Notes under the pieces: generated by a model
Database searches by the model: none
The model's input: the letters and a program-made list of their open reading frames with translations, nothing else
Told to the model about the DNA's origin: nothing
NCBI RefSeq assembly: GCF_003790525.1
Contig: NZ_CP033635.1
Strand: one strand, 5' to 3'
DNA length: 64,000 bases
Source: Escherichia coli
Lineage (GTDB): Bacteria > Pseudomonadota > Gammaproteobacteria > Enterobacterales > Enterobacteriaceae
Shown: positions 1,445 through 19,045 of the stretch, piece by piece
Layout of the letters: every line of letters begins with the position of its first letter
Numbering within the stretch: position 1 is the stretch's first letter
Position numbers and translations under genes: made by a program

Positions 1445-2317
<873 letters not shown>

Positions 2318-2537
2318 TCATACCGTTAATTCATTGTGTCGTGAGTAACTTTCACTTCCGTATTTACATAACCGTGTTTTAACATTACACCTTTGTAAGG
2401 CAGCGGCAATTACAACAATTATCGCGGTGAATACTGGATTATGTGTGCCGCCTCACGCACAATAATCAGGCTGCTAATCAGCTTAATAACTTTGCCCCAC
2501 GCAGGGCAGAGGCGTCACACCTGCAGGAGAAAAATAA

Positions 2538-3206
2538 ATGCCATCACTCAGTAAAGAAGCGGCCCTGGTTCATGAAGCGCTGGTTGCGCGAGGACTGGAA
2601 ACACCGCTGCGCCCGCCCGTGCATGAAATGGATAACGAAACGCGCAAAAGCCTTATCGCCGGTCATATGACGGAAATCATGCAGTTGCTGAATCTCGACC
2701 TGGCTGATGACAGTTTGATGGAAACGCCGCATCGTATTGCCAAAATGTATGTCGATGAAATTTTCTCCGGTCTGGATTACGCCAATTTCCCGAAAATTAC
2801 CCTTATTGAAAACAAAATGAAGGTCGATGAGATGGTTACGGTGCGCGATATCACTCTGACCAGTACCTGTGAACACCATTTTGTTACCATTGATGGCAAA
2901 GCGACGGTGGCTTATATCCCGAAAGATTCGGTGATCGGTCTGTCAAAAATTAACCGCATCGTGCAGTTCTTTGCCCAGCGTCCGCAGGTGCAGGAACGTC
3001 TGACCCAGCAAATTCTCATTGCGCTACAAACGCTGCTGGGCACCAATAACGTGGCTGTCTCTATCGACGCGGTGCATTACTGCGTGAAAGCGCGTGGCAT
3101 CCGCGACGCAACCAGTGCCACAACAACGACCTCTCTTGGTGGATTGTTCAAATCCAGTCAGAATACGCGCCACGAGTTTCTGCGCGCTGTGCGTCATCAC
3201 AACTGA
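2538..3206 (+). CDS. folE: GTP cyclohydrolase I
   Basis: 222 aa; conserved CEHH region; ends ...RAVRHHN. Confidence 0.9.
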
Positions 3207-3222
3207 TTAAAAGGCAGGAACC

Positions 3223-4380
3223 ATGGAGCGCAACGTCACGCTCGATTTTGTTCGCGGCGTCGCCATTCTGGGGATCCTGCTATTAAACATCAGCGCCTTT
3301 GGGCTACCAAAGGCGGCTTATCTCAATCCCGCCTGGTACGGCGCTATTACGTCGCAGGATGCATGGACCTGGGCATTTCTCGATCTCATCGGCCAGGTGA
3401 AATTCCTCACGCTTTTTGCTCTGCTGTTTGGTGCGGGCCTGCAAATGTTGCTGCCCCGTGGCAGACGCTGGATCCAGTCGCGGTTAACGCTGTTAGTCTT
3501 GCTGGGCTTTATTCACGGTTTATTGTTCTGGGACGGCGATATTCTGCTGGCTTACGGGCTGGTGGGCTTAATCTGCTGGCGGCTGGTGCGCGATGCGCCA
3601 TCGGTAAAAAGCCTGTTTAATACAGGCGTCATGCTTTATCTGGTGGGGCTTGGCGTTTTGCTGTTATTGGGGCTGATTTCCGACAGCCAGACCAGCCGCG
3701 CCTGGACGCCGGATGCATCGGCTATTTTGTATGAAAAATACTGGAAGCTTCACGGCGGCGTTGAAGCGATCAGTAATCGTGCCGATGGTGTTGGCAACAG
3801 TTTACTGGCACTGGGCGCACAGTATGGCTGGCAACTGGCAGGGATGATGCTCATTGGTGCCGCATTGATGCGCAGCGGCTGGCTGAAAGGGCAGTTCAGC
3901 TTACGTCACTATCGTCGTACTGGTTTTGTGCTGGTGGCGATTGGGGTGACCATTAACCTTCCTGCCATCGCCCTGCAATGGCAGCTGGACTGGGCGTATC
4001 GCTGGTGTGCATTCTTACTTCAAATGCCGCGGGAACTGAGTGCGCCGTTTCAGGCGATTGGCTATGCGTCGCTGTTTTATGGCTTCTGGCCGCAATTAAG
4101 CCGCTTTAAGCTGGTGCTGGCAATCGCCTGTGTCGGACGGATGGCACTGACCAACTATCTATTGCAAACGCTGATTTGTACCACGCTTTTTTACCACCTC
4201 GGTTTGTTTATGCTGTTTGACCGTCTGGAATTGCTGGCGTTTGTTATTCCGGTATGGCTGGCGAATATTCTCTTCTCTGTTATCTGGCTGCGTTACTTCC
4301 GCCAGGGGCCGGTGGAATGGCTCTGGCGTCAGTTAACTTTGCGTGCAGCTGGGCCGGCAAGATCTAAAACATCAAGATAA
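3223..4380 (+). CDS. yeiB: Inner membrane protein (DUF418 family)
   Basis: 385 aa multi-pass hydrophobic ORF; synteny. Confidence 0.8.
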   Translation: MERNVTLDFVRGVAILGILLLNISAFGLPKAAYLNPAWYGAITSQDAWTWAFLDLIGQVKFLTLFALLFGAGLQMLLPRGRRWIQSRLTLLVLLGFIHGLLFWDGDILLAYGLVGLICWRLVRDAPSVKSLFNTGVMLYLVGLGVLLLLGLISDSQTSRAWTPDASAILYEKYWKLHGGVEAISNRADGVGNSLLALGAQYGWQLAGMMLIGAALMRSGWLKGQFSLRHYRRTGFVLVAIGVTINLPAIALQWQLDWAYRWCAFLLQMPRELSAPFQAIGYASLFYGFWPQLSRFKLVLAIACVGRMALTNYLLQTLICTTLFYHLGLFMLFDRLELLAFVIPVWLANILFSVIWLRYFRQGPVEWLWRQLTLRAAGPARSKTSR

Positions 4381-15632: not shown

Positions 15633-16580
15633 ATGCGTGTGTTACTGGCACCGATGGAGGGTGTACTCGACTCTCTGGTGCGTGAATTGCTGACCGAAGT
15701 TAACGACTACGATCTGTGCATCACCGAGTTTGTCCGCGTGGTGGATCAACTGCTGCCGGTAAAAGTCTTTCATCGCATTTGCCCTGAGCTACAAAACGCC
15801 AGCCGGACACCATCCGGTACGCTGGTGCGCGTGCAGTTGTTAGGTCAGTTCCCACAATGGCTGGCAGAGAATGCCGCCCGTGCGGTCGAGTTAGGTTCCT
15901 GGGGCGTGGATCTCAATTGCGGCTGCCCGTCGAAAACGGTTAACGGTAGCGGCGGTGGGGCGACGTTACTCAAAGATCCTGAACTCATCTATCAGGGTGC
16001 AAAAGCGATGCGCGAAGCTGTACCGGCGCATTTGCCCGTCAGCGTAAAAGTGCGTCTGGGCTGGGACAGCGGTGAGAAGAAATTTGAAATCGCCGATGCG
16101 GTTCAACAGGCTGGTGCTACAGAGCTGGTGGTGCATGGGCGGACGAAAGAGCAGGGTTACCGCGCGGAGCATATTGACTGGCAGGCGATTGGCGAGATTC
16201 GCCAGCGGCTGAATATTCCGGTGATTGCCAACGGTGAAATCTGGAACTGGCAGAGTGCGCAACAATGCATGACGATCAGCGGATGCGACGCAGTGATGAT
16301 TGGTCGCGGGGCGCTCAATATTCCCAACCTGAGCCGGGTGGTAAAATATAACGAACCGCGAATGCCGTGGCCGGAGGTAGTTGCTTTGCTGCAAAAATAT
16401 ACCCGTCTGGAAAAGCAGGGCGATACCGGGTTATATCACGTAGCGCGGATTAAACAGTGGTTGAGTTATTTGCGTAAAGAATACGATGAAGCAACAGAAT
16501 TATTTCAGCATGTTCGGATGTTGAATAATTCCCCTGATATTGCAAGGGCTATTCAGGCAATTGATATCGAGAAACTCTAA
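15633..16580 (+). CDS. dusC: tRNA-dihydrouridine synthase C
   Basis: Dus TIM-barrel motifs (LAPMEG, NCGCP); start at [10 protein letters not shown]. Confidence 0.85.
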
Positions 16581-16810
16581 GAAACATAGTGATGTTTTTT
16601 GACAATGTGTTAGCTCTTTATCAATAGGCCGCACGGTTGTTTGGTGGCGTCAAAATCGCCGAGGCGTTCCCTGAAGGCCGGGGCAGCCCACATGGATGTG
16701 GGCTGAGGGCGCGTTTTACAGGGATAATGAGATGGACGCTCCAGATTTTACGGTATCAAAGTACCAGACTGGATCGTTGCAATACGTCCTGAAAAATTAG
16801 GAGCGTCCAC

Positions 16811-17836
16811 ATGAAAGTATCAACTCTTGGTATCGACCTGGCAAAGAACGTTTTTCAGCTTCATGGTGTCGATCATGAAGGCCATACTATTTTGCGTAAA
16901 AAGCTCACCCGGGCTAAGTTTGTTCAGTTTGTGATTCAACTGGAACCTTGTCTGATTGGCATGGAAGCCTGCTCATCCAGTCATTATTTTGCGCGATTAT
17001 TCACCCGCTATGGTCATGAGGTAAAACTCATACCTCCGCAGTATGTGAAGCCTTATGTGAAAACGAACAAGACGGATGCAACAGATGCTGAAGCAATCTG
17101 CGAAGCGGTAACACGTCCGAATATGCGTTTTGTTCAGATAAAAACCGAAGAGCAGCAGGCCGTTTTAGCGTTACACACTGAACGGGGAATACTTATCCGT
17201 GAGCGGATTGCCTGTGCCAATAGTTTAAGAGCCACACTTGCTGAGTTTGGTATTACGATTGCGGCCGGACAAAACCATTTAACCCGTGAGCTGCCAGCCA
17301 TTCTGGAGGATGGCGAAAATGGTTTATCTCCCTTTGTCAGAACCAGCATCTACAGACAGTCTAAACATATCCGGGAACTTGAAGAACAAGTTAAACAGGT
17401 AGAAGAAGCTCTGGCCTCCTGGTATAGAACGCAGGAAGCCTGCCAGAGAATGGCCAAGATCCCGGGGGTTGGCATGCTAACGGCCACTTATGTGGTAGCA
17501 GCAGTGGGTAATGCCCGACAATTCAGTACCGCAAAGCAGTTCGCTTCATGGCTGGGGCTGACACCAAAGGAACATTCCAGCGGCGGGAAACAGCAACTGG
17601 GAGGGATCAGCAAACGTGGAGATGGATATTTCCGATACCTGCTGGTTCACGGCGCACGCGCACTTACCGCCAGGGTCAACCGAAACGGCGCGGTTGAGAA
17701 GAATTCCTGGCTTCAGGGACTCCTTGAGCGGAAGCACTACAATGTAGCTGTTGTCGCCATGGCGGCAAAAACAGCGAGGATCATGTGGTCAATGTTGTCA
17801 CACAATACTGAATATCAACCTCGGCAGCTCGCCTGA
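16811..17836 (+). CDS. IS110-family DEDD transposase/recombinase
   Basis: 341 aa; N-terminal LGIDLAK...GMEACSSSHYF...TDATDAEAI RuvC-like motifs; C-terminal IPGVG...LGLTPKEHSSGG...ISKRGD Transposase_20-like region. Confidence 0.85.
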   Translation: MKVSTLGIDLAKNVFQLHGVDHEGHTILRKKLTRAKFVQFVIQLEPCLIGMEACSSSHYFARLFTRYGHEVKLIPPQYVKPYVKTNKTDATDAEAICEAVTRPNMRFVQIKTEEQQAVLALHTERGILIRERIACANSLRATLAEFGITIAAGQNHLTRELPAILEDGENGLSPFVRTSIYRQSKHIRELEEQVKQVEEALASWYRTQEACQRMAKIPGVGMLTATYVVAAVGNARQFSTAKQFASWLGLTPKEHSSGGKQQLGGISKRGDGYFRYLLVHGARALTARVNRNGAVEKNSWLQGLLERKHYNVAVVAMAAKTARIMWSMLSHNTEYQPRQLA

Positions 17837-18112
17837 CACAAGGTCAGTCAATCTGACGAGGTGCTGAAAAAAAGTTAACGTCCTGGTAGGTGCAGGTGAC
17901 TTCAGAAGATGGCAAAACAGGTAAGACCGCAGGCAGGATACACCGAGAGGTAACAAGGGCAAGTTAGCCCGTAGAGGATGATTGGTACCTGCCTGGCGGA
18001 TTTCATCATGGTTCGGGATAAAAATCCCATCAGAAACCGGATATATGGCTGCACCTACCCGTTTTATTACATAACTGAAGAAAGCATTGCATTCCGGGAG
18101 CGTCCATATATG
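17837..18112 (+). ncRNA. Candidate guide (bridge/seek-type) RNA region in the IS 3' non-coding tail
   Basis: No credible ORF; by analogy with IS110/IS1111 elements that encode a target/donor-pairing ncRNA in their longer non-coding end. Exact RNA ends not determinable here. Confidence 0.3.
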
Positions 18113-18311
18113 TTACCTCGCGCCCGACCCGGTAGCCGCAAGGGATAAGCCGAGGGTACCGCGCAGCGGCGATTTTGTTCGCCAGAGCCCGGGGGGCAGG
18201 GGGCGGCGGCGATTGGCCGCCCCCTGCGCGCTCCTTGCGTCAGTGGCAATATGTGGCTTAGCTCATGAAAGGAGCGCAACAAGATGATGAATCAACATAT
18301 AACAACATTTT

Positions 18312-18340
18312 AAAAAAAGCCTGACATTGCGCCAGGCCTT
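18312..18340 (-). terminator. Rho-independent terminator of aqpZ
   Basis: On the minus strand GCCTGGCGCAATGTCAGGC followed by a T7 run, just past the aqpZ stop. Confidence 0.5.
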
Positions 18341-18349
18341 CTGCGTTAA

Positions 18350-19045
18350 TTAATTACGCTTTTCCAGCAGGGTCCGGTAAATCAGACCACCGATAATACC
18401 GCCGACAATTGGCACCACCCAGAAGAACCACAGTTGTTCTAACGCCCAGCCGCCCTGGAAGATAGCAACCGCGGTGCTGCGCGCCGGGTTAACAGAAGTG
18501 TTAGTCACCGGAATACTGATTAAGTGAATCAGGGTTAAGGCCAGACCAATAGCTATCGGCGCAAAACCTGCCGGAGCGAATTTGTCGGTTGCGCCGTGGA
18601 TCACTAACAGGAAGCCCGCACTCAATACCAGTTCAACTACCAGCGCGGAAAGCATGGAATAACCGCCTGGCGAATGCTCGCCATAACCGTTAGAAGCAAA
18701 ACCGCTGGCTGCCGCGTCAAAACCTGTTTTACCACTGGCAATTAAATACAGCAGCGCCGCCGCAACAATACCGCCGACAACCTGGGCAATTACGTAGCCA
18801 ACGACTTCTTTTGCCGGGAAACGTCCGCCAGCCCATAAACCAATAGTGACCGCCGGGTTAAAATGACCACCAGAAATATGACCAACAGCAAAGGCCATCG
18901 TCAGAACGGTCAGACCGAATGCAAGCGCCACGCCGGCAAAACCAATGCCTAATTCCGGGAAGCCTGCGGCCAGTACGGCACTACCACAGCCACCAAAAAC
19001 AAGCCAGAAAGTACCAAAACATTCAGCTGCTAATTTTCTGAACAT
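18350..19045 (-). CDS. aqpZ: Aquaporin Z
   Basis: 231 aa with two NPA motifs; start at [11 protein letters not shown]. Confidence 0.9.

What the first reader, a model, noticed from the sequence alone, without database searches (positions are those of the whole stretch)
17837..18112. Long 3' non-coding tail of the IS110-family element: candidate guide-RNA locus
The transposase start is only ~85 bp from the left end, while ~275 bp of ORF-free sequence follows the stop. In IS110/IS1111 elements the longer non-coding end encodes a structured RNA that pairs with target and donor DNA. The motif GGAGCGTCCA occurs at both ends (inverted at 16732, direct at 18097) and again at the RBS (16800).
Basis: partly seen in the sequence, partly recalled or inferred. 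Interest (0 to 1): 0.45.

Follow-up and report, generated by a model that had tools for sequence, protein, structure and literature searches.

The report
Guide RNA of insertion sequence ISEc81
The non-coding tail belongs to the catalogued E. coli insertion sequence ISEc81 and almost certainly encodes the roughly 150-base guide ("bridge" or "seek") RNA that this family uses to choose its insertion site, so it is a correct call of an already known kind of system.

Summary

- **Element.** It is ISEc81, at window 16725-18110 (1386 bp). Its transposase is 100% identical to the ISfinder ISEc81 protein. It has all IS1111-group hallmarks.
- **RNA model.** I built a covariance model from 14 relatives, leaving out the window. 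These included ISEc11, whose 3' RNA is experimentally proven. The model hits the 64-kb window once, at 17904-18056 (+), at 94.9 bits and E 2e-23. Its helices are backed by compensatory changes.
- **Guides.** Four guide segments sit at fixed alignment positions and change with each element's own target and ends. In the window:
  - GAGGUAACA (17947-17955) pairs with the right target TGTTACCTC.
  - GGAUG (17976-17980) covers the left target and core. This is the weakest match in the family.
  - AUUUCAU (18000-18006) pairs with the left end.
  - AUAUAU (18041-18046) copies the circle junction.
- **Target.** It is the tip of a hairpin in the chromosomal TRIP1 repeat.
- **Not shown.** Expression and protein binding are inferred, not tested.
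- **Side finding.** This copy and a second one bound a roughly 1.4-Mb inversion across the terminus. Both junctions carry the IS in 84 complete genomes. Only one empty junction exists.

This is a new member of a known kind, of low to moderate interest.

The parts
16725..18110 (+). ISEc81, complete copy (1386 bp), IS1111 group of the IS110 family
   Evidence: The ends come from empty sites. The transposase is identical to '>ISEc81' in the source data of PMC11187229. Full-length copies (at least 80% of the query) occur in 175 of 5426 E. coli genomes.
16631..16724 (.). Left half of the target repeat TRIP1 (the dusC-side copy, TRIP1c), ending ...TTTTACAGGGA
   Evidence: It is 98.6% identical to the K-12 yohP-dusC intergenic region and 96.8% to the lysO-aqpZ copy. 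The repeat is named in PMC10888264.
16725..16731 (+). 7-nt left terminal extension TAATGAG. Positions 3-9 of the element (ATGAGAT, 16727-16733) are the site paired by the T-donor guide.
   Evidence: Relatives share the pattern xAATGxx before ATGGAC. Guide covariation is shown.
16732..16742 (+). Left subterminal inverted repeat ATGGACGCTCC
16800..16809 (+). Third copy of the repeat motif, overlapping the Shine-Dalgarno sequence. It is predicted to pair with the left repeat in the 5' UTR and hide the ribosome-binding site.
   Evidence: The predicted hairpin is -30.2 kcal/mol. A 10-nt equivalent exists in relative L011 but not in the others. The function is inferred.
16811..17836 (+). Transposase/recombinase gene (341 aa). 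The GL-P----SG motif lies at residues 249-258.
   Evidence: It is 42% identical to the ISEc11 transposase.
17837..18110 (+). 3' non-coding region (the finding)
   Evidence: Relatives have 3' non-coding regions of 253-322 nt.
17904..18056 (+). Core of the predicted bridge/seek RNA (153 nt)
   Evidence: It is the only hit of model R1 in the window: 94.9 bits, E 2e-23, model positions 1-155 of 155. It is 99.4% identical to the Kluyvera copy, against 96.5% for the ORF.
17908..17912 (+). Helix P1, 5' strand GAUGG. It pairs with 18003-18007 (UCAUC) and overlaps the T-donor guide.
   Evidence: 3 of its 5 pairs show compensatory changes. P1 excludes P4 in a nested fold, which is unresolved.
17930..17937 (+). 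Helix P2, 5' strand CAGGCAGG. It closes the target-binding loop and pairs with 17988-17995 (CCUGCCUG).
   Evidence: All 8 pairs show compensatory changes.
17947..17955 (+). T-target guide GAGGUAACA. It is complementary to the top strand of the right target, TGTTACCTC (18111-18119).
   Evidence: Mean longest match is 7.15 nt to the element's own site and 3.24 nt to other elements' sites, p<=1e-5. It aligns with the published T match of ISEc11.
17957..17970 (+). Hairpin P3 (GGGC-AAGUUA-GCCC) inside the target-binding loop
17974..17982 (+). B-target guide GAGGAUGAU. Only GGAUG (17976-17980) matches the left target plus core, GGGA|TG.
   Evidence: It is the weakest B match among the 13 elements compared. 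In relatives this guide equals the left flank followed by the first 5 nt of the left end.
17988..17995 (+). Helix P2, 3' strand CCUGCCUG
18000..18006 (+). T-donor guide AUUUCAU. It pairs with left-end positions 3-9 (ATGAGAT) with one G.U pair.
   Evidence: The guide changes along with the left end in other elements: ISEc11 ATTACAT, L030 ATCTTAT, L016 ATGTCAT, L031 ATTTCAT. p=4e-4.
18010..18038 (+). Helices P5 (GGUU/AACC) and P6 (GGGAU/AUCCC) of the donor-binding part
18041..18048 (+). B-donor guide AUAUAUGG. Its first 6 nt equal the circle junction ATATA|T.
   Evidence: The guide changes along with the right-end extension in other elements: L011 ATGTAT, L042 ATCTAT, IS4321 ATAGAT, L023 ATATAGAA. 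p<=1e-5.
18087..18092 (+). -35-like hexamer TTGCAT. After circularisation it lies 16 nt upstream of a perfect TATAAT formed across the junction (18109-18110 plus 16725-16728).
   Evidence: The geometry is the same as in ISEc11, whose junction promoter was shown experimentally (PMC11187229). For ISEc81 it is inferred.
18097..18107 (+). Right subterminal inverted repeat GGAGCGTCCAT, followed by the 3-nt extension ATA (18108-18110)
18111..18287 (.). Right half of TRIP1 (the aqpZ-side copy, TRIP1a), starting TGTTACCTCG
   Evidence: The right flank 18111-18349 is 96.3% identical to the K-12 lysO-aqpZ intergenic region over 241 nt.

Best explanation
**What it is.** The tail is the guide-RNA gene of ISEc81. 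An RNA of about 150 nt (17904-18056, same strand as the transposase) folds into two guide-bearing modules.

**Target-binding module.** It is closed by helix P2 and holds hairpin P3.
- On the 5' side, GAGGUAACA pairs with the top strand of the right target, TGTTACCTC.
- On the 3' side, GGAUG pairs with the bottom strand of the left target plus the core.

**Donor-binding module.**
- AUUUCAU pairs with the top strand of the left end.
- AUAUAU(GG) pairs with the bottom strand of the right-end/left-end junction of the excised circle.

**Proposed reaction.** Bound to the DEDD recombinase, the RNA brings the circle junction to the loop of a hairpin in the TRIP1 repeat. Exchange occurs at a shared AT, with no duplication.

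**Expression.** The RNA is most likely cut out of the 3' end of the transposase transcript. That transcript would be driven by a promoter that exists only in the circle (TTGCAT-16-TATAAT), or by read-through from dusC.

**Shown here:**
- homology to a proven guide RNA;
- a structure supported by covariation;
- guides that track each element's own sites;
- site-specific, duplication-free insertion.

**Inferred only:** transcription, processing, protein binding and the order of strand exchange.
For: **Identity and family.** The protein equals ISEc81 and passes Pfam and NCBIfam. The element has an 11-bp subterminal repeat and 7/3-nt extensions. It inserts exactly 1386 bp at the same TRIP1 position in all sites examined:
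- E. coli sites;
- the one Kluyvera copy whose flanks were read (L007).

**Homology.** The tail aligns with the 3' regions of ISEc11, IS4321 and 12 other elements over a conserved core. ISEc11's RNA from this region co-purifies with the transposase, is needed in cis or in trans, and is reprogrammable (PMC11187229).

**Structure.**
- On an alignment without the window, 95.4% of cells are paired, against 78% in shuffles.
- 20 of 30 pairs show compensatory change.
- Slid controls give 28-45%.
- On 25 distinct sequences, 97.5% are paired.

**Independent model.** R1 has one hit in 64 kb, full length, at E 2e-23. It also finds 8 further relatives outside its training set.

**Guides.** Matches to an element's own site beat matches to other elements' sites for all four guides. 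Strand and side controls gave weak or no signal. In elements not used to define the columns, the T guide matches the right flank:
- exactly or with one wobble in L036 (8 nt plus a wobble), L018 (9 nt) and L044 (8 nt);
- at 8 of 9 in L026, with one true mismatch.

**Conservation.** The core shows 1 difference in 154 columns against the Kluyvera copy, versus 36 in 1026 for the ORF.
Against: - There are no expression data of any kind.
- No sigma-70-like promoter or intrinsic terminator lies in or just before the tail on the + strand.
- The single-sequence fold is only modestly better than shuffles, z = -1.72.
- The left-target guide is weak in this element: 5 contiguous pairs, the poorest of the 13 compared.
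- Helices P1 and P4 cannot both form in a nested fold. P1 would sequester the T-donor guide. P4 is almost invariant, so it carries little covariation evidence.
- Donor-guide statistics are partly confounded by shared descent of related elements.
- Rfam has no family to confirm against.
Confidence: 0.9

Rival explanations
1. The tail acts only as DNA. It would carry transposase-binding sites, the right inverted repeat and the -35 box of the junction promoter. Any transcript would be an inert 3' UTR.
For: The right repeat and a -35-like hexamer do lie in the last 25 nt. No dedicated promoter or terminator flanks the proposed RNA.
Against: The conserved core (17904-18056) lies upstream of those DNA signals. 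It shows compensatory changes in 20-21 helix pairs. DNA-binding sites do not predict that. The guide columns track each element's own flanks. In ISEc11 the homologous region works in trans as RNA (PMC11187229).
Confidence: 0.03
2. The RNA gene is real but this copy, or ISEc81 as a whole, is no longer an efficient mobile element. Its left-target guide matches TRIP1 poorly, so the copies would be old passengers.
For: The B guide gives only 5 contiguous pairs. ISEc81 is confined to the few TRIP1 copies in a genome, with a median of 2 places per genome.
Against: - The ORF is intact and copies are 99% or more identical across 175 genomes.
- At least three TRIP1 loci and Kluyvera are occupied.
- One genome shows a precise empty site inside an otherwise ISEc81-bounded inversion, which suggests recent excision.
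- One TRIP1 variant (ACAAGGA in L004) pairs better with the guide.
- ISEc21, an IS110-group relative, still moved with only 5-6 matching target bases on the left (PMC11187229).
Confidence: 0.1
3. The tail RNA is a regulatory RNA that controls transposase expression or stability, rather than a DNA guide.
For: It lies in the 3' UTR of the transposase mRNA. ISPpu9, another IS110-family element, uses small RNAs and 5' UTR structure for control (PMC12288879).
Against: A regulatory role does not explain why four loop segments copy the element's own flanks and ends, in the register seen for the proven ISEc11 guides. No complementarity to the transposase 5' region was noted.
Confidence: 0.03
4. The tail encodes one of the small ORFs of 50-56 aa that overlap it.
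For: These ORFs are listed mechanically.
Against: Two are antisense and one runs out of the element into the target repeat. The tail's conservation pattern is that of paired RNA helices with variable loops.
Confidence: 0.01

Closest known systems
ISEc11 seekRNA (IS1111 group; Siddiquee et al. 2024, PMC11187229)
   Same: - The RNA lies in the 3' non-coding region.
- The core is alignable, with the same helices.
- The T guide lies 5' of the B guide, at the same alignment columns.
- Both have subterminal repeats with 7/3-nt extensions and insert without duplication.
- The junction promoter has the same geometry.
   Different: - The transposases are only 42% identical.
- The target is TRIP1 (GGGA|TGTTACCTC), not GTGA|AAATACTG.
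- The left-target guide is much weaker.
- Nothing has been tested experimentally for ISEc81.
IS621 bridge RNA (IS110 group; Durrant et al. 2024, PMC11208160)
   Same: One RNA carries a target-binding and a donor-binding module. Each module reads one strand on each side of a short shared core. The partner is a DEDD recombinase. The target is a palindromic chromosomal repeat.
   Different: - The IS621 RNA is encoded upstream in the left end. Here it is downstream in the right end.
- The order of the guides is reversed.
- ISEc81 has long subterminal repeats.
- The core is AT rather than CT.
- The donor guides flank a hairpin. They may sit in a multiloop or in alternative folds (P1 versus P4).
ISPa11 and ISKpn4 (IS1111 members that insert in REP and attC hairpins)
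   Same: Insertion occurs at a fixed point in a potentially folded DNA structure. The ISEc81 site is in the terminal loop of a TRIP1 sub-hairpin; the fold has z = -6.5.
   Different: The target family is different. TRIP1 has only about 3 copies per genome, so the copy number of the IS is capped.
ISYen1 (its N-terminal region closely resembles ISEc81's; listed in the same source data)
   Same: The transposase is clearly related along its length (sequence shown).
   Different: I did not retrieve its DNA, so I did not compare its guides and target.

Membership tests
IS110 family, IS1111 group | DEDD (RuvC-like) N-terminal domain plus the PF02371 C-terminal domain with a GL-P----S/TG motif | tested here: met
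   PF01548 scores 7e-15 over 1-153 of 155. PF02371 scores 2e-24. NF033542 scores 362 bits against a cut-off of 140. GLTPKEHSSG lies at residues 249-258.
IS110 family, IS1111 group | Subterminal inverted repeats of 7-17 bp, with a 7-nt left and a 3-nt right extension | tested here: met
   The repeat is 11 bp, with extensions TAATGAG and ATA. The same rule returns the ISfinder lengths for ISEc11 (1443) and IS4321 (1327).
IS110 family, IS1111 group | The longer non-coding region lies downstream of the transposase gene | tested here: met
   86 nt upstream against 274 nt downstream.
IS110 family, IS1111 group | Site- and orientation-specific insertion without target duplication | tested here: met
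   Every examined copy reads ...ACAGGGA|IS|TGTTACCTCG..., apart from one ACAAGGA variant (L004). Empty sites differ by exactly 1386 bp. A shared AT makes the crossover point ambiguous by 2 bp.
IS110 family, IS1111 group | A circular intermediate whose junction forms a promoter | not testable with these tools
   The sequence predicts TTGCAT-16-TATAAT across the junction. I could not look for circles.
seekRNA / bridge RNA of IS1111-type elements | Homology to an experimentally mapped guide RNA region | tested here: met
   It aligns with the ISEc11 3' region. Model R1, trained without the window and including ISEc11, hits at E 2e-23.
seekRNA / bridge RNA of IS1111-type elements | A conserved secondary structure supported by covariation | tested here: met
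   0 of 500 shuffles reach the observed values, and slid controls give 28-47% paired.
seekRNA / bridge RNA of IS1111-type elements | Loop segments complementary to the top strand of the right target and the bottom strand of the left target, with the T segment 5' of the B segment | tested here: met
   T is 9 nt, and B is 5 nt including the core. Family-wide permutation gives p<=1e-5 for both. The B match in this element is weak.
seekRNA / bridge RNA of IS1111-type elements | Segments complementary to the element's own ends (donor recognition) | tested here: met
   AUUUCAU pairs with the left end with one G.U. AUAUAU matches the junction. Both guides vary together with the ends across relatives. 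Shared descent inflates the statistic.
seekRNA / bridge RNA of IS1111-type elements | The RNA is made, processed and bound by the transposase | not testable with these tools
   No expression data were available. No promoter-like site was found in the linear element.
Any Rfam RNA family | A match at or near the gathering score | tested here: not met
   In 16400-18500 there were only two chance-level hits, E 4 and 8, far below gathering. None of the 4227 Rfam 15 families gave a credible match in the tail.
IS621-type bridge RNA (IS110 group) | RNA encoded in the left end upstream of the recombinase, with the bottom-strand guide 5' of the top-strand guide | tested here: not met
   The left end is only 86 nt. 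The RNA lies in the right end, with T 5' of B. It works like IS621's RNA but is not of that subtype.

The most novel reading that the evidence does not exclude
The roughly 1.4-Mb inversion across the terminus, whose junction lies in this window, was made by ISEc81's own RNA-guided recombinase rather than by RecA. The enzyme would have acted on two inverted copies embedded in TRIP1, or on their junction sites. That would be a natural example of bridge-RNA-guided chromosome inversion. The rearrangements credited to the TRIP1 repeat itself would then really be IS-driven.
Probability: 0.1. Interest if true: 0.7.

Novelty: new member of a known kind. Interest (0 to 1): 0.3.

Why it matters
For the field this is confirmation rather than discovery. 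Guide RNAs in the 3' ends of IS1111 elements were shown in 2024, and NCBI already labels this protein an RNA-guided transposase.

What is added:
- An explicit guide map for ISEc81, which to my knowledge is not described in the literature I could search.
- Its natural target, the tip of a hairpin in the TRIP1 repeat.
- An out-of-sample check that one structural model and one guide register hold across distant relatives.
- The observation that the B guide reads the left flank plus the start of the element.

Practically, it gives a worked natural example of a 9 + 5-nt target code for anyone engineering IS1111-type recombinases.

The side observation may revise how TRIP1 'repeat-mediated' rearrangements in E. 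coli are interpreted. ISEc81 copies sit at both ends of a recurrent inversion across the terminus.

Tried and rejected
- **Rfam.** A permissive search of 16400-18500 gave only chance-level hits.
- **Promoters and terminators.** The sigma-70 and terminator scan found nothing in or before the tail on the + strand.
- **Single-sequence fold.** It is only weakly better than shuffles, so I do not rely on it.
- **AGATGG at 17907-17912.** I first read this as a donor guide. The alignment shows it is the 5' strand of helix P1.
- **Candidate CAGG/CCUG helix** (A2 columns 16-19 with 40-43). Dropped, because relatives break it without compensation (read).
- **Possible long-range pairing** between the 5' part of the non-coding region and the -35 region. 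It was inconsistent across relatives and I did not pursue it.
- **One-ended inversion idea.** I considered that the inversion arose by a recombinase reaction leaving the IS at only one junction. I rejected it because both junctions are occupied in 84 genomes each and no empty lysO-yohP hybrid exists.
- **The '174 genomes'.** This count is not specific to the junction, because the IS makes up 81% of that query. I do not use it.
- **The '59 genomes'.** This is an undercount caused by a borderline coverage threshold.
- **Unresolved ends.** I could not define the ends of L015 (tandem right-end copies), L029 and L039 well enough to test their guides.
- **Published RNA boundaries.** The supplement of PMC11187229 holds no seekRNA sequences as text, so I could not map the exact 82-nt and 154-nt boundaries of ISEc11 onto the window.

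Full report
**What is there.** The window matches E. coli SMS-3-5 at 100%.
- An ORF at 16811-17836 (+) encodes a 341-aa protein.
- The protein carries Pfam DEDD_Tnp_IS110 and Transposase_20 domains. It matches NCBIfam NF033542 'IS110 family RNA-guided transposase' at 362 bits against a cut-off of 140.
- It is identical, residue for residue, to the sequence labelled ISEc81 in the source data of Siddiquee et al. 2024.
- Only three survey papers in the searchable library name ISEc81.
Chance expectation is 0.05.

**Boundaries and target.**
- K-12 has an uninterrupted site, TTTTACAGGGATGTTACCTCG, in the yohP-dusC and lysO-aqpZ intergenic regions.
- Strain KFu014 has the window's own two flanks joined, at 100% identity.
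- The insertion is therefore exactly 1386 bp, at 16725-18110 under the IS1111 convention. A 7-nt left extension (TAATGAG) and a 3-nt right extension (ATA) lie outside an 11-bp subterminal inverted repeat. There is no duplication, and an AT is shared by target and circle junction.
- The same convention returns the ISfinder lengths of ISEc11 and IS4321.
- All copies examined lie at this same point of the same repeat, with one single-base variant of the left flank in L004. They are the window, yegH-asmA, yohP-dusC, lysO-yohP and one Kluyvera copy (L007).
- The repeat is TRIP1 of Li et al. 2024.
- As single-stranded DNA its centre folds into a long hairpin (z = -6.5). The insertion point lies in a terminal loop.

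**Is the tail a guide-RNA gene?** Rfam gives nothing, so I compared relatives.
- *Relatives.* One scan of reference genomes and a plasmid search gave relatives at 40-96% protein identity. Most have ATGGAC-type subterminal repeats and a 3' non-coding region of 253-322 nt.
- *Alignment.* Their 3' regions align over a conserved core of about 150 nt. This includes ISEc11 and IS4321. In ISEc11, RNA from this region co-purifies with the transposase, is required in cis or in trans, and can be reprogrammed (PMC11187229).
- *Structure without the window.* On a core alignment without the window or its Kluyvera twin, my structure has 95.4% of cells paired. Shuffles give 78% (0 of 500 reach the observed value). 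Of 30 pairs, 20 show compensatory change. Slid controls give 28-45%.
- *Independent model.* A covariance model built from that alignment hits the 64-kb window once, at 17904-18056 (+). The hit is full length, at 94.9 bits and E 2e-23.
- *Generality.* The model also finds eight relatives that were not in the training set. On 25 distinct sequences, 97.5% of cells pair. That alignment is fitted to the model, so it leans towards the structure.
- *Conservation.* The core differs from the Kluyvera copy at 1 of 154 columns. The ORF differs at 36 of 1026.

**Guides.** Four loop segments at fixed alignment columns follow each element's own DNA.

| Guide | Window | Reads | Family pattern |
|---|---|---|---|
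| T-target | GAGGUAACA, 17947-17955 | top strand of right flank, TGTTACCTC | 7-9-nt exact matches in 8 of 13 elements; ISEc11's equals its published T match |
| B-target | GGAUG, 17976-17980 | left flank plus core | last 4-7 nt of left flank, then a near-constant xAAUGAGG equal to the first 5 nt of the left end |
| T-donor | AUUUCAU, 18000-18006 | left-end positions 3-9, one G.U | changes with the left-end extension |
| B-donor | AUAUAU, 18041-18046 | circle junction ATATA\|T | changes with the right-end extension |

- The B-target guide reads the left flank/left end junction better than the naive target. The window's match is the weakest of the 13 elements.
- In permutation tests, matches to an element's own site beat matches to other elements' sites for all four guides. 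p<=1e-5 for three and p=4e-4 for the T-donor guide. Wrong-strand controls show nothing, and the wrong-flank control only a marginal excess (p=0.018).
- Shared descent inflates the donor statistics. It inflates the T-target statistic much less, because near-identical RNAs (L019, L024, L027) carry different guides for different sites.
- In elements not used to define the columns, the T guide again matches the right flank. L036, L018 and L044 match well, and L026 matches at 8 of 9.

**Mechanism.** The anatomy is a two-module bridge RNA.
- The target module (P2, P3) and the donor module (P5, P6, with a short closing helix P4) each read one strand on each side of a short core.
- T lies 5' of B, as reported for IS1111-type elements and opposite to IS621.
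- The linear element has no promoter-like site for the RNA. Joining the ends would create TTGCAT-16-TATAAT, the same geometry as the proven ISEc11 junction promoter.
- I therefore infer that the RNA is processed from the transposase transcript of the circle, or from read-through from dusC. The same is assumed for ISEc11.
- Transcription, processing and binding are not shown here.
- P1 pairs with part of the T-donor guide and cannot coexist with P4 in a nested fold. Which one forms, and when, is open.

**The third motif copy.** The copy at 16800-16809 overlaps the Shine-Dalgarno sequence. It can pair with the left repeat in the 5' UTR (-30 kcal/mol). Relative L011 has an equivalent 10-nt pairing, and the other relatives have only about 5 nt. 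Occlusion of the ribosome-binding site is plausible but untested.

**Context.**
- In the window the IS joins the dusC half of TRIP1c to the aqpZ half of TRIP1a.
- SMS-3-5 carries a second copy at the reciprocal lysO-yohP junction. A segment of about 1.4 Mb across the terminus is therefore inverted between two inverted ISEc81 copies.
- Among 5426 complete genomes, 84 have dusC-ISEc81-aqpZ and 84 have lysO-ISEc81-yohP.
- One genome has the empty dusC-aqpZ hybrid and none has the empty lysO-yohP hybrid.
- Li et al. credit such rearrangements to TRIP1 and do not mention the IS.
- Homologous recombination between the two 1.4-kb copies is the simple explanation. I cannot exclude recombinase-made inversion. 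I did not establish how many independent events the 84 genomes represent.

**Verdict.** The kind is known (Durrant et al. predict a bridge RNA in the right end of 93% of IS1111 elements). This particular RNA and its TRIP1 code appear undescribed, so I rate it a new member of a known kind, with interest 0.3.

Noticed in passing
window 16581-18349; L046 (NC_010498.1 906109-913860): The IS sits at the junction of an inversion of about 1.4 Mb across the terminus (dusC next to aqpZ). A second, inverted ISEc81 lies at the reciprocal lysO-yohP junction. Both junctions are occupied in 84 of 5426 genomes each. Only one empty hybrid junction exists (KFu014), which looks like a precise excision. The published account credits the TRIP1 repeat and does not mention the IS.
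   Followed up: partly
window 16732-16742 with 16800-16809: The third copy of the repeat motif overlaps the Shine-Dalgarno sequence. It can pair with the left inverted repeat in the 5' UTR (-30 kcal/mol), which would hide the ribosome-binding site. An equivalent 10-nt pairing exists in relative L011 but not in the other relatives.
   Followed up: partly
alignment A1 columns 199-206; window 17979-17986: In most relatives the 3' part of the B-target guide is a near-constant xAAUGAGG equal to the first 5 nt of the element's left end. The guide therefore matches the left flank/left end junction of an integrated copy better than the empty target. This may serve excision or a handshake step.
   Followed up: partly
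window 17908-17912 / 18003-18007 versus 17996-17999 / 18049-18052: Helix P1, which has covariation support, overlaps the T-donor guide and is mutually exclusive with the short helix P4 in a nested fold. This suggests alternative conformations or a pseudoknot.
   Followed up: no
L004 (NZ_CP076706.1) 2300-4090: In an O170:H18 strain the TRIP1 copy between yohP and dusC, with its ISEc81, lies in the opposite orientation to K-12. Its left target reads ACAAGGA, which pairs better with the B guide than the usual ACAGGGA.
   Followed up: no
L041 (ISEc11 on plasmid NZ_CP050863.1) 1972-2032; L015 1523-1632: The right end, including the inverted repeat, is duplicated in tandem: twice 39 bp apart in this ISEc11 copy, and at least three times in a Francisellaceae relative. 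The true flank follows the last copy.
   Followed up: no
window 16802 versus L046: The two ISEc81 copies of SMS-3-5 differ at 8 positions, all between 16802 and 17719. None lies in the RNA tail. One (16802 A to G) falls in the Shine-Dalgarno/repeat motif.
   Followed up: no
window 16811-17833 (protein residues 130-253): The protein gives a weak sub-threshold match to the NCBIfam model for the TIGR-Tas RNA-guided endonuclease: 31.7 bits against a cut-off of 100.
   Followed up: no
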